Source: a phage. Taken from it: a stretch of 50,355 nucleotides of DNA. The notes below the pieces were generated by a model, which saw nothing but the letters and a program-made list of their open reading frames with translations, searched no databases and had not been told where the DNA came from. Position numbers and translations under genes: made by a program. The stretch lies in the sequence record PZ871096.1; one strand, written 5' to 3'. Shown here piece after piece: positions 529 to 48,273 of this stretch (position 1 is the stretch's first letter; the number at the start of each line of letters is the position of its first letter).

Positions 529-2096
529 TGATCATATGGGAAGATTTGACGGCGGCGCAAAAGCGAGCCATTAAAGAAATCAGTGAGCATTCATTCGAAA
601 AGATGATTAGAATCTGGTTCCAGTTATTGCAGGGGCAAAAATTCCAGAGCAACTGGCATTTTAGCTTATTGTGCAGAGAGGTAGAGAAGATCATCAATGG
701 AGAGTCGCAGAATGTGATTTTCAACATTACGCCAGGTAGCGGTAAGACTGAGATTTTCTCGATCCACATGTCACCCTACGCGTCATTGAAAAGCCGGAAG
801 GTGAGAAATCTTAACCTTTCGTTTAGTGATGGCCTTGTCCAGCAAAACAGCAACCGGATAAAGGAGATTATTGGTTCTCCTGAGTGGCAAGAGCTATGGC
901 CTGGGAAACTGGCAAAGGCGAGCGCTAAAGATCTGATAGTCACCGAAGGCGGCAAGGTTAAATTGCAAGCTAACTCACGTTCTATTGGCGGCCAGGTAAC
1001 AGGTTTGCGTGGCGGCTATATGGACGATGGTTTTACTGGTATGCTGGTTCTTGACGATCCAGACAAGCCGGATGACATGCTTTCTAAGGTTAAGCGTGAG
1101 GCGATCCACATGCGGTTAAAAAACACAGTGCGATCGCGTCGAATGAAAGACACCACGCCGATTGTTATGGTGCAACAGCGACTACACGTTAATGATTCCA
1201 CCTGGTTTATGCTTAATGGCGGGATGGGTGGTATTGAGTTTAAAGTTGTGAGCATTCCGGCGCTGGTTACGGAAGAATACCGCGAAACGCTTCCTGATTG
1301 GTTGAAGCCTGAATTTGATCGTGATGTGCTGTCAAGTAAGCCAGTTATGATAGATGGCGTTGCTCATTATTCATTCTGGCCTGCGAAGGAAAGCGCGGAG
1401 GAGTTGCTCGCATTGCGCAATGCAGATCCTTACACGTTCGCCAGCCAATACCAACAGCAACCAATCGCGCTGGGCGGGAACGTGTTTAAAACAGAGTGGT
1501 TCCAGTATTACGGCAGCGGCGAAAAATGCGCACTACCAAAACCGGATCGCTTTGAATACACATTTATTACTGGAGATACCGCGCAGAAGGCCGGAGAGCT
1601 TAACGACTATTCAGTTTTTTGTTACTGGGGGATGTATAAGAATCGCGTTTACTTCATTGATGGCATTCGCGGAAAGTGGGAAGCGCCGGATCTTGAATTA
1701 AATTTTATTGCCTTCGTTAATCAGTGCTGGAAGCGCAATAAGGAGTGTGGCAGCTTGCGACGTATCCACATTGAGGATAAGGCCAGCGGCACTGGTTTGA
1801 TTCAGGGGGCCAAAAAGAAGATCCCGATTGATATAAATCCCGTTCAGCGAAGCAATGACAAGGTAACGCGAGCAATGGACGCCGCGCCAGTGATGAGGGC
1901 CGGACGTGTGGCGCTGCCAGAAAATCACCCCATGCTGCCTGAGATACTGGCAGAGGTTGCAGCATTCACTTTTGATGATTCTCATCCCCATGATGATATT
2001 GTCGATAATATAGTTGATGCTGTTAACGTCGAAATGAACTTGGCAGATGATCCGGTGGCAAGGATGAAAAAGCTGGCTGGTCTACGCAATAAATAG
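528..2096 (+). CDS. terL: terminase large subunit
   Basis: 522 aa; ATPase and nuclease-type motifs (e.g. GMLVLDDPDKPDD Walker B-like); first gene pair of the packaging module. Confidence 0.85.
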   Translation: MIIWEDLTAAQKRAIKEISEHSFEKMIRIWFQLLQGQKFQSNWHFSLLCREVEKIINGESQNVIFNITPGSGKTEIFSIHMSPYASLKSRKVRNLNLSFSDGLVQQNSNRIKEIIGSPEWQELWPGKLAKASAKDLIVTEGGKVKLQANSRSIGGQVTGLRGGYMDDGFTGMLVLDDPDKPDDMLSKVKREAIHMRLKNTVRSRRMKDTTPIVMVQQRLHVNDSTWFMLNGGMGGIEFKVVSIPALVTEEYRETLPDWLKPEFDRDVLSSKPVMIDGVAHYSFWPAKESAEELLALRNADPYTFASQYQQQPIALGGNVFKTEWFQYYGSGEKCALPKPDRFEYTFITGDTAQKAGELNDYSVFCYWGMYKNRVYFIDGIRGKWEAPDLELNFIAFVNQCWKRNKECGSLRRIHIEDKASGTGLIQGAKKKIPIDINPVQRSNDKVTRAMDAAPVMRAGRVALPENHPMLPEILAEVAAFTFDDSHPHDDIVDNIVDAVNVEMNLADDPVARMKKLAGLRNK

Positions 2097-2123
2097 CACT
2101 AATTGCTAAAAAGTTATATAATC

Positions 2124-6692: not shown

Positions 6693-6741
6693 CTAATAGC
6701 ATAAAAAAACATTGCACGTTTAACAAAAAGTGCTATCATCT

Positions 6742-10430: not shown

Positions 10431-10503
10431 CATTCCTGTAAAATCAATCTATCAAATAAATTAATTCCACTTTTAACAAAAAGTGCTATAAGGAGATCTT
10501 GAG

Positions 10504-21117: not shown

Positions 21118-21237
21118 TTGTTATTTTTTGTTTTCCGGTGTTATCGGATTTAAGACGGCGTAAATTTAGCGCAAATTTTAGCCAACATAAGAACAATAAA
21201 TAATCAATAAAATAGATATATACATATAAAATCAATA

Positions 21238-21400
21238 GTTTATTTATTTATGTATGTATATTTGTTTTTTCTTGTTATCTGTGTTTCTTGTGGTTTTGGT
21301 TGTTTGTGGTGATTTTTCTTTCTGAGTATCTGTATGTGCCATCATTCATGTGTATGTATATAATCCGGCGTATCTGAGAGAACAGGGGAACAAGAAAAAT
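21238..21400. repeat. AT-rich TG/TA-repeat element, copy A (homologous to 40737-40990)
   Basis: shared blocks TTATTTATTTAT, GTATGTATAT, TTGTTATCT, TTGTGGTTTTGGT, GTATCTGTATGTG, GGGAACAAGAAAAA. Confidence 0.6.
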
Positions 21401-21486
21401 AACACATATTAATCATTAACTTACGCGTCAAATTTGTTTTGTTGCCATCTGAGAACGTTTAGAAAACAGAAAAAACAAAACAACTA

Positions 21487-21514
21487 TTGACTAAATCAAC
21501 CAAATGGCTACAAT
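21487..21514 (+). promoter_or_regulatory. sigma70-type promoter for exonuclease-ERF-SSB operon
   Basis: TTGACT (21487-21492), 16-nt spacer, TACAAT (21509-21514); SD GAGGAG; ATG 21545. Confidence 0.55.
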
Positions 21515-21544
21515 GCACACACAAAGCAACGAGGAGCATTAAAG

Positions 21545-22600
21545 ATGAGTGATTTTAACGCCTATACTAGCGAAGAAATGAGCAATGAGCTTTATCATGA
21601 TCCTAACGCGTGGACGGCTGAATACGTCAGCGGTTCCAGCCTGGCGGAGATTTACAGCACTTGCCCGGCGTACTGGAAGTACAAGCCTCGCCAGGAAACT
21701 AAGGCACTTGTTTTCGGTACGCAGTCGCATACCAATTTTGAAAGCAAGGAGTTATTCGAAAAAACATATCGCCGCGCACCGTCGCAGGATGACTTTAAAG
21801 ATCTGATTACAAGCCAAACGGCGTTAGCTTCAAAGCTGAAATCTTTTGGCCTGAAAGGTACGACGGGTAAGCAATACCCTGAACTGCTGGAAATGCTGTA
21901 CAAGTGCGGTGAGGATCTCAATGTATGGTGGCTTATCGAAATGATGGCAGAATGCCAGGCCGCAGCGGACGGAGTGCAGTTAATCGACGCGAAAGATTAT
22001 GATGCCTGTGTAGCGATGCGGCGCGTACTTGAGGCAATACCTGAGCATAATGCTTGCATGAATAGCCCAACCGCGCAGCGTGAAATGTCAATATTCGGGA
22101 TCATCAATGGCGTAAAAGTTAAAGTGCGTCTTGATCACGTTGACGTAAACAAGGATGTAAAGGCCACAATCATTAACGGTTACGACGAAAAAGGACGACC
22201 GATTTATGAAGAAGTAATCTATCCAGAAGCTGTGATTATCACTGACTATAAAACAACGGTTAGCGCAAATCCGGTTGACTTCCAGCGCCTGGCTTACAAT
22301 CACGGCTATTATCTAAAAATGGCTTTGCAGCATGATTTATTTAAAAAGGCGTATCCAGACGAGGAAAGGCCAGTAATTGTGAGATTGCTTGCTCAGGAGA
22401 AGAAAGAGCCTTACTTGCCGCTCGCATTCCGCATGAACATTGAGCAATTGAAGATCGGGCGTATCCAGTACATGAGCGTGATCAACAAGTTCAACGTTTG
22501 CCAACAGTTAGATGAATGGCCTTCGTATGCAAACGGACAACCAGAAATTGATCTTGATACTCATGATTGGGTTCGTGCTCAATTCAGGCAGTATCTATGA
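21545..22600 (+). CDS. PD-(D/E)XK exonuclease (RecE / exonuclease VIII-like)
   Basis: 351 aa; D...DYKT-type nuclease motif (AVIITDYKTT); followed by an annealing protein gene. Confidence 0.6.
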   Translation: MSDFNAYTSEEMSNELYHDPNAWTAEYVSGSSLAEIYSTCPAYWKYKPRQETKALVFGTQSHTNFESKELFEKTYRRAPSQDDFKDLITSQTALASKLKSFGLKGTTGKQYPELLEMLYKCGEDLNVWWLIEMMAECQAAADGVQLIDAKDYDACVAMRRVLEAIPEHNACMNSPTAQREMSIFGIINGVKVKVRLDHVDVNKDVKATIINGYDEKGRPIYEEVIYPEAVIITDYKTTVSANPVDFQRLAYNHGYYLKMALQHDLFKKAYPDEERPVIVRLLAQEKKEPYLPLAFRMNIEQLKIGRIQYMSVINKFNVCQQLDEWPSYANGQPEIDLDTHDWVRAQFRQYL

Positions 22601-25995: not shown

Positions 25996-26012
25996 TTGTA
26001 AAATCCTCCTAA

Positions 26013-26033
26013 ATAGCACTTTTTGCTAATGAC
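26013..26033 (+). promoter_or_regulatory. conserved box in inverted orientation immediately upstream of tail fibre SD
   Basis: ATAGCACTTTTTGCTAATGAC on + strand; on the minus strand GCAAAAAGTGCTAT is followed directly by AGGAGG and the ATG. Confidence 0.4.
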
Positions 26034-26101: not shown

Positions 26102-27031
26102 TTATAGCAGTGATTCGGGCTTGTAGAGTTTTCTTTCTACGCCCTGTTTAAAATTATCGTTAACAGGCATCATTATGTCAAGACCTCTTTCCTCTGCCGA
26201 GATTATCACATCACGATCATCTTTCCGGCAGACTACACGCATTCTTCTTTCTCCTTTATATCTATGCGCAACCATTTCAAGATTTGAAGGAGTAAAGCAA
26301 GCCCACACCTCTTGACCAGTTGATAAATGAACATGCTGGGAGTCAACCCAATCAAGGCACAAATAGATCGTCTTATCTGTGCTACCTGTTTTAACAACAG
26401 ATCCGCGCGTGTAGTCGCGAGCTAAAAACCAATCCTTTCCATCCTCATCAATGAAAAGCACGTTACACATTTCATCATCCAGCCCGTCATCATGCACCAG
26501 GTGACAAGGTAGCGCGTGAATGTATCGACCATCCTTGACGCCGCAATCATAATAACAATCTTCCGGCGGATATATCCCCTCATAAACGCTTAAGGGTGTG
26601 CGATCGAATTTTAATGTTTTTGCCATCACTTTTTCGCAGCATTCATGACTTGCCTGTTTCCCGAACGAGTAACCAGAAGAACGCGAAGCGCGCTTGTTTG
26701 CTCTGATCCTGTAATCCTGCGGCACTTTTCCGAGGAAGCGGCCCAAAATGTTGATGGCCTCGCTGTAAGGTTCGCCAGTTAATTTCATTAACCAACCGAT
26801 CCCTGTGTCGTTACCGCATACGTTGCAGATAGCGCCGCCGTCGCCCTCTTCATTTAGCTTATCAGTCCATCTAAAACGATCCTTGCCGCCGCAGTGTGGG
26901 CAAGGCTGATGCTTTTTGTTGAAAACATCGCTATGCAGTCCGCAAATGCTTTGTAGTGCTTCACGCCATAACCCCTTCATATATGGCAAAACGTCTTCTT
27001 TCTGATAGGTCATAAAGTTTTCAGTATTCAT
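26102..27031 (-). CDS. DNA primase (zinc-finger containing)
   Basis: ORF-track frame 26102-27109; start moved to ATG 27031 because a terminator hairpin (27041-27080) lies inside the longer frame; CPHCGG...CNVCG zinc-binding motif. Confidence 0.55.
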   Translation of the reverse strand: MNTENFMTYQKEDVLPYMKGLWREALQSICGLHSDVFNKKHQPCPHCGGKDRFRWTDKLNEEGDGGAICNVCGNDTGIGWLMKLTGEPYSEAINILGRFLGKVPQDYRIRANKRASRSSGYSFGKQASHECCEKVMAKTLKFDRTPLSVYEGIYPPEDCYYDCGVKDGRYIHALPCHLVHDDGLDDEMCNVLFIDEDGKDWFLARDYTRGSVVKTGSTDKTIYLCLDWVDSQHVHLSTGQEVWACFTPSNLEMVAHRYKGERRMRVVCRKDDRDVIISAEERGLDIMMPVNDNFKQGVERKLYKPESLL

Positions 27032-27086: not shown

Positions 27087-27563
27087 TTAGCTATTCGTGC
27101 TGTTATCACCTTTGTAGAATCGTCCGCCTGGTTCGTAGTCTGAATTTTTGACTACGCGCAACATTTCGTATTTGTCGCAACGGGTAGTAAGAGGCTTGCC
27201 GTTAGAATCAAACCGCAGATCTGGACGACAAAACGAGGCGCGGTATCCTTTGCATCCATTATATTTGTAGTCGTTATGCACCTTTTGTGCTCCAGCGGCT
27301 GAAATCATACCACGCTTTCGCCACTGGTTAACGACTTGCTGAGATACGCGCAGACGTCGGGCCATAGCAGGAACACCGCCGTAATACTCGATCAGAATGT
27401 CAAGGCGAGATTTCAGGCTTGCTTTTACCTCATCTCGCAGGATAAGAAATCCGGTTCGGTGTTTTCGTGGCTTTTTGTCTTTACCTCGTCGCGTTCCGTT
27501 GTTACCGTTAATAGTGCGCTTGTCGATCTCACCAGTAGATACTGCAATTCGTGCATCTTTCAT
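27087..27563 (-). CDS. HTH DNA-binding protein (Cro/CI / YdaS-like helix-turn-helix)
   Basis: 158 aa; GGVPAMARRLRVSQQVVNQWRKRGMIS HTH signature; GAGGTGA SD; divergent from helicase gene. Confidence 0.55.
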   Translation of the reverse strand: MKDARIAVSTGEIDKRTINGNNGTRRGKDKKPRKHRTGFLILRDEVKASLKSRLDILIEYYGGVPAMARRLRVSQQVVNQWRKRGMISAAGAQKVHNDYKYNGCKGYRASFCRPDLRFDSNGKPLTTRCDKYEMLRVVKNSDYEPGGRFYKGDNSTNS

Positions 27564-27574
27564 CTAGTCACCTC

Positions 27575-27618
27575 ATAGCATTTTTTGTTAAAACAGTTTA
27601 TTGTAATGAGTCTATTAT
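27575..27618 (+). promoter_or_regulatory. conserved-box promoter for helicase operon; box also abuts the SD of the divergent regulator gene
   Basis: ATAGCATTTTTTGTTAAAAC (27575-27594), 18-nt spacer, TATTAT (27613-27618). Confidence 0.5.
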
Positions 27619-27650
27619 ATACTCCAAATGGCATTTTTTAAAGGTTTAAG

Positions 27651-31135: not shown

Positions 31136-31178
31136 TAGCACTTTTTGTTAAAACGCCCGGCCTAGTGTCGGGCATAAT
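31135..31178 (+). promoter_or_regulatory. conserved-box promoter (inverted duplicate of 34351-34394)
   Basis: ATAGCACTTTTTGTTAAAAC, spacer GCCCGGCCTAGTGTCGGG, CATAAT. Confidence 0.5.
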
Positions 31179-31716: not shown

Positions 31717-32832
31717 ATGAAAAATGTAAAAATTACAGATGAGCAATTCAAGATCGAACGGGCGGCAGGTAAGACATATAAACAGATCGCTCAAGAGTAC
31801 GGAATGAATGTGAGAAGCGTCGAGCGTCGCGCGGCGCGTCTTGCAAAGCAAGGACAGTTATCGACCATCGGAGCGCCTGGTTTTGGTGTTCATGGTGAGT
31901 CAGTAATGACTGACAAAGAAGGAAATATAATCCTCAAGTGGACCAAAACCAGCAAGGATAAAGAGCAATTAGAGGCACTGATGCGCGCAGCTATGGAGGC
32001 GTTTAGCGAGGAAGTGCCGCGATTAGATCCAGTTCCATTGCAGGAGCGTAATTATAATGAAACGCTTTCATTGTATCCGATCTTTGACATGCACTTAGGC
32101 GCTATGGCCCATAAGCACGAATGCGGCGAAAATTGGGATACTGCGACGGCGGAGCGCGTTATGAATAACTTTATCGACTATGCTTTGATGTGCGCACCGG
32201 ACAGCGAAAAGGCTGTTATCCTGATTGGTGGCGATATGCTGCATAGCGACGGCCTGGAGGCGGTGACACCTGCAAGCGGTCACGTACTTGATCAAGATAG
32301 CCGATATGCAAAATTGGTTTACGTTGCAATACGTGCAATGCGCCGCGCAATTAATAAAATGCTGTTAAAGCATAAACATGTTGAGGTGCAGATCGTAGAG
32401 GGTAATCACGACCAATCAGGAATGATTTGGCTACGCGCAGCAATGGCGGCAGCATATGAGAACGAGCCGCGCGTTTACGTTGATGTTTCTCCTCGCGTTG
32501 TTCACCACACGCAATACGGAAAAACTTTCCTTGCGTACCATCACGGGCACACAGTGCGTAAACCGGAGACTTTGCTAATGATGTGCGCGTCAGATTGGCG
32601 GGAGGACTTCGGAAACTCAAAAACGATGTATGCGCACGTAGGGCACTGGCATCACCAGACCGTGACAGAAACGTCGCTTGGCATCGTGGAGGTGCATAGC
32701 ACCCTGGCGGCAAAAGACGCATACGCCGCGCGAGGTGGCTGGAGATCTCGACGCCGTGCAGCGGTTATCATTTACGACAAAGAGCATGGAGAAGTCGGGC
32801 GATTTGTTCACTATCCAGAAATGATGAATTGA
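31717..32832 (+). CDS. calcineurin-like metallophosphoesterase with N-terminal HTH-like region
   Basis: ORF-track frame 31567-32832; ATG 31717; phosphoesterase motifs DMH, GGDMLHSD, VEGNHDQ, YHHGH, GHWHH; N-terminal KTYKQIAQEYGMNVRSVERRAARL. Confidence 0.6.
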   Translation: MKNVKITDEQFKIERAAGKTYKQIAQEYGMNVRSVERRAARLAKQGQLSTIGAPGFGVHGESVMTDKEGNIILKWTKTSKDKEQLEALMRAAMEAFSEEVPRLDPVPLQERNYNETLSLYPIFDMHLGAMAHKHECGENWDTATAERVMNNFIDYALMCAPDSEKAVILIGGDMLHSDGLEAVTPASGHVLDQDSRYAKLVYVAIRAMRRAINKMLLKHKHVEVQIVEGNHDQSGMIWLRAAMAAAYENEPRVYVDVSPRVVHHTQYGKTFLAYHHGHTVRKPETLLMMCASDWREDFGNSKTMYAHVGHWHHQTVTETSLGIVEVHSTLAAKDAYAARGGWRSRRRAAVIIYDKEHGEVGRFVHYPEMMN

Positions 32833-40374: not shown

Positions 40375-40409
40375 TTAATATCTCCTGAGCGGTTCGTTTC
40401 GATGTGTGT

Positions 40410-40453
40410 AATGTACCCGATCAGGTGGCCTGAGTTTTAACAAAAAGTGCTAT
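40410..40453 (-). promoter_or_regulatory. conserved-box promoter heading the leftward operon
   Basis: minus strand ATAGCACTTTTTGTTAAAAC, 18-nt spacer, TACATT. Confidence 0.45.
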
Positions 40454-40460
40454 TTGACGG

Positions 40461-40575
40461 TTATCGCCAGGATTGCGATAGAAATAATCAAAAGTAATCA
40501 TTCGTAATCAAATCACGTCAAAATGATGATTGCCTTTGCAAATTTGATGAGAAAAGTAATCACGTTTAATCATTG
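40461..40575. repeat. palindrome TATCGC-N7-GCGATA plus five TAATCA repeats (iteron/operator-like)
   Basis: TAATCA at 40486, 40495, 40505, 40558, 40567; AATCACG twice. Confidence 0.5.
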
Positions 40576-40736
40576 GTTGCAGGGGAGATAGTGAAACCTT
40601 CCCCTCTTGCCTCACTTTTCCGCCTGGCTGTCAGTGGTTGTTATGTTCCGTTCCCGCCTGTTCTTTTGTTGACCTTCCGCAAAATACGATAACAAAAAAT
40701 AACAAACAGTACCTATATAATACATTGAAAAATAAG

Positions 40737-40990
40737 GATTATTTATTTATATGTATCTATATATTCTCTTTTGTTATCTTGGTTATTGTGGTATTTGGTG
40801 GGGGTATATAGTTTTTGTGTATCTGTATGTGTGTGTGGGTATGTATGGGCATATATATCTATATGGCACTTTCCGCGAGAAAACTTCGATAACAGGCAAT
40901 GATAACATTGATTTATAAGGAAAAATAACGCCCATATTGTTATTGTGCCACCATATAAAATTGATAAAACACGCGGGAACAAGAAAAAAC
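40737..40990. repeat. AT-rich TG/TA-repeat element, copy B (homologous to 21238-21400)
   Basis: same blocks as copy A in the same order, same strand. Confidence 0.6.
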
Positions 40991-40992
40991 AG

Positions 40993-41021
40993 TTGACACA
41001 TTAAATAGCATTATTGATAAT
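40993..41021 (+). promoter_or_regulatory. strong sigma70-type promoter for rightward operon
   Basis: TTGACA (40993-40998), 17-nt spacer, GATAAT (41016-41021); spacer contains a degenerate copy of the conserved box (ATAGCATTATTGATAATG). Confidence 0.6.
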
Positions 41022-41050
41022 GCCCACACCTAACAACCAGGAGGTAGAAA

Positions 41051-41515
41051 ATGAGCGAGCAATCATTCACTGACACGCTGCGCCGTGCCGCTATTATGCT
41101 GGCTAATGGCGAGGAAGAGACGATCAAGATTCCTGACGCGTATTTGCAGGTCCACATGTTCGGCAAGAAGTCGGCAAGCAATCCTGCGGCCTACATTCGC
41201 CAGATCATGAGTCGAGTGCCAGAAGTCGCCGAGCGGGGGCGCGTATCCGTTACCCGTGGCGTTTACGGGCCGGAAGATGAAAACTTCGGTAGCACTTTCT
41301 ACGAGGTGCGGATTGTTGAAGGCCGTCGCAAGGTTTACAACAAAGAAGCACTGGAAAGGGCAGTGCGCCAGGCTAAGCGCAAGGTTGCAGAGGCGATCAT
41401 TGATATGTCACCAAACCTGGCAAACTATGCGCCGGAAGAGTACGAAACATTATCAAAGGCCGTCGCTGACTTTCACGCGATGATCAAAAAAACTTTCCTG
41501 GATGATGAGCAATGA
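41051..41515 (+). CDS. hypothetical protein
   Basis: 154 aa; SD AGGAGG. Confidence 0.5.
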   Translation: MSEQSFTDTLRRAAIMLANGEEETIKIPDAYLQVHMFGKKSASNPAAYIRQIMSRVPEVAERGRVSVTRGVYGPEDENFGSTFYEVRIVEGRRKVYNKEALERAVRQAKRKVAEAIIDMSPNLANYAPEEYETLSKAVADFHAMIKKTFLDDEQ

Positions 41516-41784
41516 AAAAGGCATTAATCAGCGTTTTGGCGGCAATGGCATTCCTGACCGGATGCAAAGAAGATGGCGCGCATGTTGGCAATGTGCAGAT
41601 GGCTAACCCTGGCGATGACTACAGCGTAAGGGAGCTATTCACCGCTGACGGTTGCACCGTTTACCGATTCTATGACGATCGCACTGTTTACTTCACCAAC
41701 TGCAAGGGCGCTACTAGCTGGGAAGTGTCGAAAAGCAATGGCAAAGGCACGAAGACAGAACATATGACCGTCGAGACAAAATAG
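41512..41784 (+). CDS. lipoprotein (second lipobox protein in genome)
   Basis: 90 aa; signal peptide and lipobox MKKALISVLAAMAFLTG|C. Confidence 0.55.
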   Translation: MKKALISVLAAMAFLTGCKEDGAHVGNVQMANPGDDYSVRELFTADGCTVYRFYDDRTVYFTNCKGATSWEVSKSNGKGTKTEHMTVETK

Positions 41785-41824
41785 CACTTTTTGTTAAAAC
41801 GCCAGGCGCGAAGCCTGGCATAAT
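41781..41824 (+). promoter_or_regulatory. conserved-box promoter
   Basis: ATAGCACTTTTTGTTAAAAC, spacer hairpin GCCAGGC-gcgaa-GCCTGGC, CATAAT. Confidence 0.5.
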
Positions 41825-43581: not shown

Positions 43582-43625
43582 ATAGCACGAATTGTTAAAA
43601 CTCAAATGTGGGGCCAGGTATAATG
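43582..43625 (+). promoter_or_regulatory. conserved-box promoter (box variant ATAGCACGAATTGTTAAAAC)
   Basis: TATAAT in loop of hairpin GGGCC...GGCCC. Confidence 0.5.
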
Positions 43626-45066: not shown

Positions 45067-45106
45067 CACTTTTTGCAAAAACAGATTATCGGGCTTGCGG
45101 TATAGT
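45063..45106 (+). promoter_or_regulatory. conserved-box promoter
   Basis: ATAGCACTTTTTGCAAAAAC, hairpin GGGCTT...AAGCCC with TATAGT in loop. Confidence 0.5.
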
Positions 45107-45137
45107 AAGCCCATCGACAACGAAAGAGGAAACGGCG

Positions 45138-48230: not shown

Positions 48231-48273
48231 TAGCACTTTTTGTTAAAACTTCCGCAAGGGCATTTGATAAAGT
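48230..48273 (+). promoter_or_regulatory. conserved-box promoter
   Basis: ATAGCACTTTTTGTTAAAAC, hairpin AAGGGCA...TGCCCTT, TAAAGT at fixed offset. Confidence 0.45.

What the first reader, a model, noticed from the sequence alone, without database searches (positions are those of the whole stretch)
40737..41021. Copy B of the TG/TA-rich element fused to a strong sigma70 promoter whose spacer contains a degenerate box
Seen directly: the promoter TTGACA (40993-40998), 17 nt, GATAAT (41016-41021) has a spacer reading AAATAGCATTATTGATAATG, about 14 of 20 positions identical to the conserved box. A factor binding the box would here overlap the spacer and -10 of a canonical promoter. Inference: one factor could activate box promoters while repressing this early promoter, giving a temporal switch.
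Basis: inference. Interest (0 to 1): 0.5.

Follow-up and report, generated by a model that had tools for sequence, protein, structure and literature searches.

The report
T1-like phage immediate-early promoter cassette
This is the near-consensus host-type promoter that starts the first operon of a T1-like coliphage, sitting in a ~360-bp upstream cassette present twice in the genome; the "degenerate box" in its spacer matches only half of the phage's known 21-nt repeat and is not convincingly more than chance.

Summary
The window is an almost complete Drexlerviridae (T1-like, Warwickvirus) genome.

**Promoter.** It corresponds to promoter P01 predicted in phage TLS. Its hexamers are conserved upstream of gp01 in most genera examined.

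**The "box".** This is the 21-nt repeat aaATAGCACnnnTTGnTAAAA already described for TLS and T1, whose function is an acknowledged open question.

**The spacer match.** It is 13/20 ungapped, and 37 other sites in the window match as well (shuffles give 51±9). It scores -2.4 bits against at least 26.5 for all 20 real boxes. Only the left half (AAATAGCA) is present; the right half is out of register. The spacer is not conserved outside close relatives.

**The temporal-switch idea.** It is better supported elsewhere. Real boxes sit 19 nt upstream of a -10 hexamer, centred near -42, with no -35. A Cro-like regulator (27087-27563, minus strand) is read from a sigma70-type promoter placed back-to-back with a box promoter.

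**The TG/TA element.** It is real. Together with the promoter it forms a ~355-nt cassette that is paralogous to the one upstream of the exonuclease VIII gene. It is neither a conserved ORF nor a structured RNA, and its function is unknown.

The parts
40410..40454 (-). Leftward box promoter on the left flank of the intergenic region. Box 40454-40435, 19-nt spacer, -10 TACATT 40415-40410. It drives the minus-strand gene 40374-40102.
   Evidence: Exact match to the box consensus. Geometry read.
40487..40606 (.). GTAATCA/TGATTAC repeats followed by GGGGAGATAGTGAAACCTTCCCCTC. The records of phages haarsle and PHB17 begin at the equivalent point, and the T1 physical end lies in the homologous intergenic region.
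   Evidence: TAATCA occurs 7 times against 0.97 expected. The T1 terminal repeat spans 1-2800.
40680..41043 (+). Early-promoter cassette, copy B. It is collinear with copy A (21183-21536) through the TG/TA element, the A-rich upstream tract, the -35, the -10 and the 5'UTR.
   Evidence: Local alignment score 69, against 13±1.7 in dinucleotide shuffles (z 33) and 20.5±3.9 in 40-nt block shuffles (z 12.5).
40712..40761 (.). AT-rich core CCTATATAATACATTGAAAAATAAGGATTATTTATTTATATGTATCTATA. This is the part of the element best conserved across genera.
   Evidence: Window 40699-40762, which contains most of this core, is 81.5% identical in Tlsvirus, Citrobacter and Salmonella phages. Sequences were compared by eye.
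40737..40880 (+). TG/TA-rich element, copy B (T 48, G 24, A 19, C 8 %). It is variable in sequence between genera.
   Evidence: No Rfam family matches. RNA folding gives z -1.57 (+) and -0.85 (-). The 55-aa ORF 40751-40918 is not conserved: it stops after 3 codons in haarsle and is 29 aa in Jahat. It has no Pfam match.
40688..40907 (.). Iterated ATAACA/TGTTAT motifs flanking the element. Starts are at 40689+, 40699+, 40772-, 40889+ and 40902+, with further copies at 40639- and 40938-.
   Evidence: ATAACA is the most enriched 6-mer in regions A and B together: 11 copies against 0.73 expected, P=4e-10. T1 carries GTAACA/GATTAAC repeats instead.
40975..40992 (+). GGGAACAAGAAAAAACAG, an A-rich tract directly upstream of the -35. 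It resembles the proximal subsite of an UP element. A similar tract occurs in copy A.
   Evidence: Sequence and alignment. The UP-element comparison rests on my own knowledge of the Estrem/Gourse consensus.
40993..41021 (+). P01 sigma70 promoter: -35 TTGACA, 17-nt spacer, -10 GATAAT. The predicted transcription start is near 41026-41028.
   Evidence: The hexamers are conserved in most gp01 upstream regions examined. It is homologous to P01 of TLS.
41003..41022 (+). The box-like sequence AAATAGCAttatTGATAAtg: a left half-box only. It overlaps the 7-2-7 palindrome GCATTAT-TG-ATAATGC (41008-41023).
   Evidence: The palindrome was read and is absent in haarsle and TLS.
41039..41784 (+). RBS AGGAGG 41039-41044, gp01 (41051-41515, DUF7174) and gp02 (41512-41784, DUF4884). 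This operon ends at the next real box, 41780.
   Evidence: A 1-nt indel at 41048 among close relatives argues for ATG 41051 as the start.
21183..21536 (+). Cassette copy A: TG/TA element 21236-21365, then Pexo with TTGACT 21487-92, a 16-nt spacer and TACAAT 21509-14. It drives the exonuclease VIII gene 21545-22600. A leftward box lies at 21118-21099.
   Evidence: Pexo is conserved in 42 of 43 IMG/VR loci.
27087..27642 (-). Candidate box-binding factor and its promoter. The ORF 27563-27087 (158 aa per ORF list) has a Cro-like HTH. Its promoter is TTTAAA 27642-37, a 17-nt spacer and TATAAT 27619-14. The helicase box (27574-27593, + strand) lies in this transcript's leader, and the helicase -10 TATTAT 27613-18 overlaps the regulator's -10.
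   Evidence: T1, TLS and PsgS01F share the layout.

Best explanation
Positions 40680-41043 are the control region of the phage's first (immediate-early) operon.

**Shown from sequence.**
- P01 is a near-consensus sigma70 promoter: TTGACA, 17 nt, GATAAT, preceded by an A-rich tract and followed by a strong RBS.
- It drives gp01 (DUF7174) and gp02 (DUF4884).
- It is one of two paralogous ~355-nt cassettes. The other drives exonuclease VIII.
- A third sigma70-type promoter drives a Cro-like regulator together with the primase.

**Inferred.**
- Host RNA polymerase fires these promoters unaided immediately after DNA entry.
- The Cro-like regulator then binds the 21-nt boxes, whose core is the imperfect inverted repeat TAGCA-N5-TG(C/T)TA. 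These boxes are centred near -42 of about 18 promoters that have a -10 but no -35.
- The regulator activates those promoters as a class II activator would. It also shuts off its own promoter, which overlaps the box promoter of the helicase gene back-to-back.

**The box-like stretch in the P01 spacer.** It is a left half-box only. Most probably it is not a functional full operator. It is either a chance match or a remnant of an AAAT(A/G)GC spacer motif shared by the early-promoter family.

**The TG/TA-rich element.** It is non-coding and is not a structured RNA. It is the central part of the duplicated upstream cassette, lying between divergent promoters. I take it to be a DNA-level element: an easily unwound or flexible region flanked by iterated ATAACA motifs. 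Its function has not been established.
For: **Identity of the window and the box.**
- The window is a Warwickvirus-like Drexlerviridae genome.
- The box is the known 21-nt repeat. TLS has only three intergenic sigma70 promoters: P01, P51 (upstream of the exonuclease) and P57.

**The promoter.**
- It matches 11/12 consensus positions and is rare in the window.
- Its hexamers are conserved across most lineages examined while the spacer varies.

**The cassette.** The two copies are paralogous, z 33 and 12.5, and copy A is conserved across genera.

**The spacer match.** It falls in the noise class: -2.4 bits against at least 26.5, and 13/20 identity is common in the window.

**The boxes.** Box-to-(-10) spacing is 19 nt in 16 cases and 18 nt in 2.

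**The regulator.**
- It is annotated as a transcriptional regulator in PeterMerian, T1 and Jahat.
- It has a Cro HTH by sequence. The model (pLDDT 86.5) matches the Xfaso1 and N15 Cro folds, TM 0.72-0.75 normalised to the Cro chain for Xfaso1 (0.66-0.68 for N15).
- It is present in 850 phage records and is 59% identical to T1 ST23.
- gp01, by contrast, is in only 206 records and is absent from T1.
- The back-to-back layout is conserved in the window, T1, TLS and PsgS01F.

**The TG/TA element.** It has no conserved ORF, no Rfam family and no significant RNA fold.
Against: - No transcription start, time course or binding data exist for any Drexlerviridae phage. The early and middle assignments, and the pairing of regulator with box, are therefore inferences.
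- The 8-nt left half-box in the spacer is individually improbable, P about 0.002.
- Left-half-like motifs recur in the swan01 and Jahat P01 promoters and in many Pexo spacers. A real low-affinity site therefore remains possible.
- Sixteen of the 20 box promoters carry a GC-rich hairpin in or around the core promoter. A simple class II activator model does not explain this.
- The function of the TG/TA element is not established by anything I ran.
Confidence: 0.6

Rival explanations
1. The half-box in the P01 spacer (ATAGCA, 41005-41010) is a functional low-affinity operator. Once the box-binding regulator accumulates, it occupies about -26 to -7 of P01 and shuts the immediate-early operon off while activating the box promoters.
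For: - The contiguous AAATAGCA matches AAATAGCAC at 8/9 positions, P about 0.002 in a random spacer.
- swan01 (AAATAGCtt) and Jahat (AAAaGGCAC) carry 7/9 matches at a similar offset. The Jahat and haarsle-type Pexo promoters carry AAATAGC directly abutting the -10.
- The same activate-and-repress logic is physically evident at the regulator's own promoter.
- There are no substitutions in 40984-41024 among five close relatives, but this is not significant.
Against: - The right half-site is out of register (N4 rather than N5), while the 20 real boxes all align to the consensus without gaps.
- The weight-matrix score is -2.4 bits against at least 26.5.
- A 13/20 identity is no rarer than chance.
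- The spacer is unrelated in Hanrivervirus, Tlsvirus, PHB17, L022/L023 and T1, although the -35 hexamer, and in most of them the -10, are kept.
- The three supporting lineages belong to one genus, so they are not independent.
- The commonest family-wide form is AAATGGC, not the box sequence.
Confidence: 0.17
2. The TG/TA-rich element with its flanking ATAACA repeats is a replication origin or DNA-unwinding region. Two copies would exist, each between divergent promoters whose transcription supplies negative supercoiling. The promoter is merely its neighbour.
For: - It combines an AT-rich conserved core with (TA)n tracts and iterated short motifs. ATAACA occurs 11 times against 0.73 expected, and the motif is lineage-specific: GTAACA/GATTAAC in T1.
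- It is conserved in position across the family, in two copies.
- No origin has been identified in T1-like phages.
- The phage encodes a primase and a helicase but no polymerase.
Against: - There is no direct evidence. No initiator protein has been identified.
- GC skew follows gene orientation only.
- No identified promoter reads through the element.
- The Jahat lineage shows no enriched iteron-like 6-mer in these regions.
Confidence: 0.15
3. The box is not a promoter element at all. It could be a stoperator or roadblock, part of an antisense terminator, or an RNA-level signal paired with the adjacent hairpin. In that case there is no activator, and the similarity in the P01 spacer is irrelevant.
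For: - Sixteen of the 20 boxes are followed by a GC-rich hairpin, mean z -2.9.
- On the opposite strand, hairpin plus GTTTTAAC looks like a terminator.
- Boxes 2092 and 26012 lack the -10 geometry, and boxes 6737 and 10490 point antisense into the late operon.
- The TLS authors themselves list stoperator and UP-like options.
Against: - A TATAAT-like hexamer lies at an invariant 18-19 nt from 18 boxes, followed by a conserved leader and an RBS.
- Orientation always follows the downstream gene.
- Without the boxes, most non-structural genes would have no promoter, since only three intergenic sigma70 promoters are predicted (for the window).
Confidence: 0.08

Closest known systems
Phage TLS promoters P01, P51 and P57, and the 21-nt direct repeats DR1-18 (PMC11447400)
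   Same: The finding's promoter occupies the P01 position, upstream of gp01. The copy-A promoter corresponds to P51, upstream of the exonuclease. The box consensus is aaATAGCACnnnTTGnTAAAA. The divergent DR11/P57 pair matches window 27574-27642.
   Different: The TLS P01 spacer (agaacaaacggcgc) has no ATAGCA. The TLS paper does not report the 19-nt spacing to a -10, the centring near -42, the duplicated upstream cassette, the TG/TA element or the hairpins. It leaves the function of the repeat as an open question.
Lambda PRM/PR switch with CI at OR2 (own knowledge)
   Same: An HTH dimer bound near -42 activates one promoter and at the same time blocks a back-to-back divergent promoter. The protein concerned has a Cro-family fold.
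   Different: The host here is a virulent phage with about 20 dispersed sites, not a three-operator array. The activator would switch on a whole gene class. No binding data exist.
Mu Mor- and C-dependent middle and late promoters (own knowledge)
   Same: The promoters have a -10 hexamer but no -35, and a phage-encoded dimeric activator binds a dyad from roughly -51 to -33.
   Different: The regulator is not a Mor/C homologue. Its fold matches all-alpha Cro proteins. The box sequence is unrelated.
Restriction-modification controller (C) proteins, for example C.BclI (own knowledge for the mechanism)
   Same: These are small HTH dimers that activate at one site and repress at an overlapping site, producing a timed switch. 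C.BclI appears among the fold matches at ranks 44 and 47.
   Different: The fold match is weak (E 1.6-1.7). C-boxes are tandem sites at a single promoter.
Strong early promoters of T5 (PN25) and T7 (A1) with AT-rich upstream regions (own knowledge)
   Same: They have near-consensus hexamers plus an A/T-rich upstream tract, and unmodified host polymerase uses them at once.
   Different: P01 is embedded in a duplicated ~355-nt cassette that carries a strand-asymmetric T/G-rich segment 120-250 nt upstream. I know of no counterpart to that segment.

Membership tests
Sigma70 (housekeeping) promoter | A -35 TTGACA and a -10 TATAAT separated by 16-18 nt | tested here: met
   TTGACA, 17 nt, GATAAT: 11/12. 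The hexamers are conserved in most relatives examined.
Sigma70 (housekeeping) promoter | Transcription initiates 6-8 nt downstream of the -10 with host holoenzyme alone | not testable with these tools
   No transcription-start or in vitro data were found for any Drexlerviridae phage.
T1-like 21-nt direct repeat (box): is the P01 spacer sequence a member? | A 5' block ATAGCAC and a 3' block TTGnTAAAA separated by exactly 3 nt | tested here: not met
   The 5' block is ATAGCAt (6/7). The 3' block reads TTGATAAtg and lies 1 nt too close. The score is -2.4 bits against at least 26.5 for the 20 members.
T1-like 21-nt direct repeat (box): is the P01 spacer sequence a member? | Location 18-19 nt upstream of a -10 hexamer and about 76 nt upstream of a start codon | tested here: not met
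   The sequence overlaps the -10 itself and begins 48 nt before ATG 41051. Real boxes show the standard geometry, for example 41780 to ATG 41857, 77 nt.
T1-like 21-nt direct repeat (box): is the P01 spacer sequence a member? | Conservation of the site in related phages | tested here: not met
   The spacer is unrelated in haarsle, damhaus, TLS, YSP2, PHB17, G29-2, L022, L023 and T1. Partial left halves occur only in swan01 and Jahat.
Class II activator-dependent promoter (applied to the real box promoters) | An activator site centred near -41.5, a -10 present and a poor or absent -35 | tested here: met
   The box spans about -51 to -32, with the centre of TAGCA-N5-TGYTA near -42. Positions -35 to -30 read AAAACN. 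The hexamers are TATAAT-like.
Class II activator-dependent promoter (applied to the real box promoters) | A protein binds the site and is required for transcription | not testable with these tools
   There is only a candidate: the Cro-like ORF 27087-27563.
Cro/CI-type HTH DNA-binding protein (the candidate factor) | An all-alpha Cro-like helix-turn-helix fold | tested here: met
   phmmer matches 5w8y at E 6e-4 and 3bd1 at E 6e-3. The AF2 model has pLDDT 86.5. Foldseek matches 3bd1 with probability 1.00, TMt 0.72-0.75 and rmsd 2.5 A, and also N15 Cro bound to DNA. The Pfam hits fall below their cutoffs.
Structured non-coding RNA (for the TG/TA element) | A match to a known family, or folding better than shuffles | tested here: not met
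   The best Rfam match is E 0.18, far below the gathering score. Folding z is -1.57 and -0.85.
Small protein gene (ORF 40751-40918) | The reading frame is conserved in relatives | tested here: not met
   There is a stop after 3 codons in haarsle, the ORF is 29 aa in Jahat, and YSP2 and PHB17 have no ATG. There is no Pfam hit.
Iteron-type replication origin (for the TG/TA element and its flanks) | Repeated short motifs next to an AT-rich, easily unwound segment | tested here: inconclusive
   ATAACA occurs 11 times against 0.73 expected, P=4e-10, in both regions, and an AT-rich core is present. However, Jahat shows no such enriched 6-mer, and no initiator protein is known.

The most novel reading that the evidence does not exclude
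One early protein, the Cro-like regulator at 27087-27563, would run the whole early-to-middle switch of T1-like phages.
- It activates about 18 promoters that lack a -35, acting from 21-nt boxes centred near -42.
- It shuts off its own back-to-back promoter.
- It also turns down the two paralogous immediate-early promoters, P01 and Pexo, through the left half-box motif AAAT(A/G)GC(A) next to their -10.

The strand-asymmetric TG/TA element between the divergent promoters would be the supercoil-sensitive unwinding region, and so the long-sought origin, of these phages.
Probability: 0.1. Interest if true: 0.6.

Novelty: new member of a known kind. Interest (0 to 1): 0.35.

Why it matters
T1-like phages (Drexlerviridae) are classic, abundant coliphages, yet their transcription programme is essentially unknown. 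A 2024 reannotation of phage TLS lists the function of the 21-nt repeat as an open question.

The specific claim in this finding, a degenerate box acting as an operator in P01, is weak. Re-examining it nevertheless gives a concrete and cheaply testable model, with four parts:
- three host-type early promoters;
- boxes placed like class II activator sites;
- a named candidate regulator with a built-in autoregulatory layout;
- a duplicated early-promoter cassette whose TG/TA-rich core has no assigned function.

A close relative, BASEL phage PeterMerian, is about 98% identical across this locus, so the experiments would be straightforward if it can be obtained.

Tried and rejected
- **Small hydrophobic ORF.** The 55-aa ORF 40751-40918 inside the TG/TA element is rejected because the frame is broken in haarsle, YSP2 and PHB17 and it has no Pfam hit.
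- **Structured RNA.** Rejected: no Rfam family matches and folding z-scores are insignificant.
- **gp01 (DUF7174) as the box-binding factor.** Rejected: it occurs in only 206 phage records against 850 for the regulator, T1 has boxes but no gp01 homologue, and no relative has a solved structure.
- **Covariation test of regulator against box.** I used the distant phage PsgS01F. It was uninformative because both the box and the regulator are conserved there.
- **Wider sampling of P01 through IMG/VR.** A word-index search for gp01 homologues found two proteins, so I did not predict a gp01 structure.
- **The 11/12 promoter match at 26181(-).** It lies inside a coding region and was set aside.
- **ORF 31717-32832.** It has a sub-threshold sigma70 region 4 hit. 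It is not a sigma factor but an HTH fused to a metallophosphoesterase.
- **Conservation among five close relatives.** There are no substitutions in 40984-41024, against an expected 2.4, which is not significant.
- **Literature.** I found no transcriptomics, start-site mapping or origin mapping for Drexlerviridae.
Full report
**What the window is.** Megablast of 40400-41600 finds 14 phages that cover at least 80% of the query at 97-99% identity. They include AV105, brachmannus, MikeNSara, PeterMerian and tiwna. These phages are classified as Drexlerviridae, Tempevirinae, Warwickvirus. The window is therefore an almost complete T1-like genome. The finding lies in the ~680-nt intergenic region between a leftward gene block (34-40.4 kb, minus strand) and a rightward block of small genes (from 41.05 kb, plus strand). 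In T1 the physical genome end, with its terminal repeat 1-2800, falls in the homologous intergenic region. The records of haarsle and PHB17 begin at the equivalent of window ~40581-40592.

**Observation check: the promoter.** The coordinates are exact. TTGACA lies at 40993-98, the 17-nt spacer follows, and GATAAT lies at 41016-21. This is 11/12 consensus positions. Only four matches of at least 11/12 exist in the window, against 1.1±0.8 in shuffles, and at least one of the other three (26181-) is inside a coding sequence. Upstream lies GGGAACAAGAAAAAACAG, an A-rich tract resembling a proximal UP subsite (my own knowledge of the consensus). Downstream are AGGAGG (41039-44) and ATG 41051. A 1-nt indel at 41048 among close relatives puts the upstream ATG, which the PeterMerian annotation uses, out of frame in the window. 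This supports 41051 as the true start.

**The "conserved box".** The sequence AATAGCACTTTTTGTTAAAA has 19 matches with at most 3 mismatches, against 0.02 expected. With one further diverged copy that makes 20 sites. It is already in the literature. The 2024 reannotation of phage TLS describes an intergenic 21-nt direct repeat, aaATAGCACnnnTTGnTAAAA. It points in the direction of transcription, lies about 76 nt upstream of start codons, and is also present in T1, Rtp and Rogue1. That paper lists its function as an open question. The same paper predicts only three intergenic sigma70 promoters in TLS: P01 before gp01, P51 before the exonuclease gene, and P57 on the opposite strand. The finding's promoter corresponds to P01.

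**How good is the box match in the spacer?**
- Against AAATAGCACTTTTTGTTAAA the ungapped identity is 13/20. By my hand alignment it is 16/21 with one gap. Thirty-seven other positions in the window reach 13-14/20, and shuffles give 51±9.
- A weight matrix separates the 20 real boxes (26.5-39 bits) from everything else (at most 5.9 bits). The spacer scores -2.4 bits.
- The real boxes contain an imperfect inverted repeat, TAGCA-N5-TG(C/T)TA. The spacer has TAGCA-N4-TGATA.
- The only unusual feature is the contiguous AAATAGCA. It occurs three times outside boxes, against 3.3 expected for the whole window. A match of at least 8/9 inside a random 17-nt spacer has P of about 0.002, but this is a post-hoc test.

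**Comparative test.** I collected gp01 upstream regions from about 17 lineages.
- The hexamers, TTGACA(C) and (G/C/T)ATAATG, and their distance to the ATG are conserved in most of them.
- The spacer is not conserved: cgccaggtggcggtaaat in haarsle, atgcgccagcacataag in YSP2, cgacattaatccaccag in PHB17, and agaacaaacggcgc in TLS.
- Only two other Warwickvirus lineages show a left-half-like motif: swan01 (AAATAGCtt) and Jahat (AAAaGGCAC). Both match 7/9, for which the null probability is 0.03. They belong to one genus, so they are not independent.
- The paralogous exonuclease promoter carries AAAT(G/A)GC directly abutting its -10 across the family: 43 IMG/VR loci, with AAATGGC or AATGGC the commonest form.

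The motif may therefore be an old feature of this promoter family rather than a decayed box. Its resemblance to the box, 6-7 of 7 positions, is only marginally significant.

**What the boxes look like functionally.** This part is sequence-derived inference.
- In 16 sites the box is followed by exactly 19 nt, and in 2 sites by 18 nt, and then by a TATAAT-like hexamer (CATAAT, TATAGT, TATAAT and similar). A conserved leader (CATCGAAACGA...) and an RBS follow.
- The box therefore spans about -51 to -32, with its dyad centre near -42. Positions -35 to -30 read AAAACN, so there is no -35 element.
- This is the geometry of class II activator sites such as CRP at -41.5, lambda CI at PRM, or Mu Mor and C (my own knowledge).
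- T1 and the distant phage PsgS01F show the same geometry.

**Candidate factor.** ORF 27087-27563 (minus strand, 158 aa per ORF list) is annotated as a putative transcriptional regulator in PeterMerian, T1 (ST23) and Jahat.
- Residues 52-91 match Cro proteins: 5w8y at E 6e-4 and 3bd1 at E 6e-3. The Pfam hits fall below their cutoffs.
- An AF2 model built from 40 homologues (pLDDT 86.5) matches Xfaso1 Cro with probability 1.00, TMt 0.72-0.75 and rmsd 2.5 A. It also matches N15 Cro bound to its operator.
- The protein is found in 850 phage records and is 59% identical to T1 ST23. This parallels the family-wide conservation of the box.
- gp01, by contrast, is in 206 records and has no homologue in T1.

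**Layout of the regulator's own promoter.** The gene is read from a sigma70-type promoter: TTTAAA 27642-37, 17 nt, TATAAT 27619-14, which is 10/12. Its -10 overlaps, on the opposite strand, the -10 (TATTAT 27613-18) of the helicase box promoter. The helicase box (27574-93) lies in the regulator's own leader. T1, TLS (DR11/P57) and PsgS01F share this layout. This is a far better instance of "activate the box promoter, repress the early promoter" than the P01 spacer.

**The TG/TA-rich element.**
- Copy B (40737-40880: T 48, G 24, A 19, C 8 %) and copy A (21236-21365) are not isolated repeats.
- The whole of 40680-41043 aligns collinearly with 21183-21536, through the element, the A-rich tract, the -35, the -10 and the 5'UTR. 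The local score is 69, against 13±1.7 in dinucleotide shuffles and 20.5±3.9 in block shuffles.
- Each copy lies between a leftward box promoter and a rightward sigma70 promoter, with the element starting about 250 nt upstream of the -35.
- The AT-rich core (40712-40761) is conserved across genera (window 40699-40762, which contains most of it, is 81.5% identical). The T/G-rich part varies in sequence.
- It is not a conserved ORF, not an Rfam family and not a significantly folded RNA. It shows no length polymorphism among close relatives.
- ATAACA is the most enriched 6-mer in the two regions: 11 copies against 0.73 expected, P=4e-10. T1 has GTAACA/GATTAAC there instead, and Jahat has none.

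I could not determine the function of the element. The most defensible reading is a DNA-level element in a divergent control region. A replication-origin or unwinding role is possible, since no origin is known for these phages, but nothing I ran supports it.

**Verdict.**
- The promoter is real, strong and conserved. It is an ordinary host-type immediate-early phage promoter, and its TLS counterpart has already been predicted.
- The TG/TA element is real and is part of a duplicated cassette that I did not find described.
- The "degenerate box" is a half-match that fails every membership criterion of the 21-nt repeat family. It is probably not a full operator, although a weak half-site cannot be excluded.
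- The temporal-switch idea is plausible for the phage as a whole, but the evidence for it lies at 27574-27642 and at the real boxes, not in this spacer.

Noticed in passing
window 27574-27642: Two promoters sit back-to-back. The helicase box promoter on the + strand has its box at 27574-93 and its -10 TATTAT at 27613-18. The sigma70-type promoter of the Cro-like regulator and primase operon is on the - strand: TTTAAA 27642-37, 17 nt, TATAAT 27619-14. Their -10 hexamers overlap, and the box lies in the regulator's leader. T1, TLS and PsgS01F share the layout.
   Followed up: yes
window, the 42 nt downstream of each of the 20 boxes (for example 31154-31172, 41800-41818, 43590-43612, 45091-45112, 48237-48260): Sixteen of the 20 box promoters contain a GC-rich inverted repeat. 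It lies either between the box and the -10, or with its arms flanking the -10 so that the hexamer sits in the loop. Mean folding z is -2.9, and only 12.5% of random 42-mers reach z below -1.5. T1 shows the same feature. The TLS paper does not mention it, and a simple activator model does not explain it.
   Followed up: partly
window 6718-6737 (-) and 10471-10490 (-): Two boxes point antisense inside the + strand structural (late) operon, each followed after 19 nt by a weak -10-like hexamer. T1 (15086-, 18850-) and TLS (DR7) have antisense boxes at equivalent places. They may be antisense promoters or roadblocks.
   Followed up: no
window 2092-2111 (+) and 26012-26031 (+): Two boxes lack the standard 19-nt spacing to a -10. 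The box at 2092 is followed directly by a strong terminator hairpin. The box at 26012 overlaps the RBS region of the minus-strand tail-fibre gene and faces a bidirectional terminator.
   Followed up: no
window 40455-41050 and 21119-21544: ATAACA/TGTTAT is the most enriched 6-mer in the two early control regions: 11 copies against 0.73 expected, including direct repeats 10 and 13 nt apart. The equivalent T1 regions carry GTAACA and GATTAAC repeats instead, and haarsle has four GTTAT(C/G/T) repeats at 9-10-nt spacing. They may be lineage-specific protein-binding iterons.
   Followed up: partly
window 40487-40606: GTAATCA/TGATTAC repeats are followed by GGGGAGATAGTGAAACCTTCCCCTC. Several related GenBank records start exactly here, and the T1 physical end maps to the homologous intergenic region. 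This is a candidate pac or terminus region.
   Followed up: no
window 31717-32832 (+): A 371-aa protein has a sub-threshold N-terminal sigma70 region 4 / HTH hit (E 0.002) fused to a metallophosphoesterase-like domain. It is annotated 'sigma 70 region' in Jahat and 'DNA repair exonuclease' in T1.
   Followed up: partly
window 21487-21514, and loci L028-L070 upstream of the exonuclease VIII gene: The exonuclease promoter, spacer included, is conserved family-wide: TTGACT aaacgc....AAAT(G/A)GC TAnAAT. Conservation of a spacer to this degree is unusual and unexplained.
   Followed up: partly
window 41008-41023: The 7-2-7 palindrome GCATTAT-TG-ATAATGC overlaps the -10 of P01. It is present only in the window's close relatives.
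   Followed up: no
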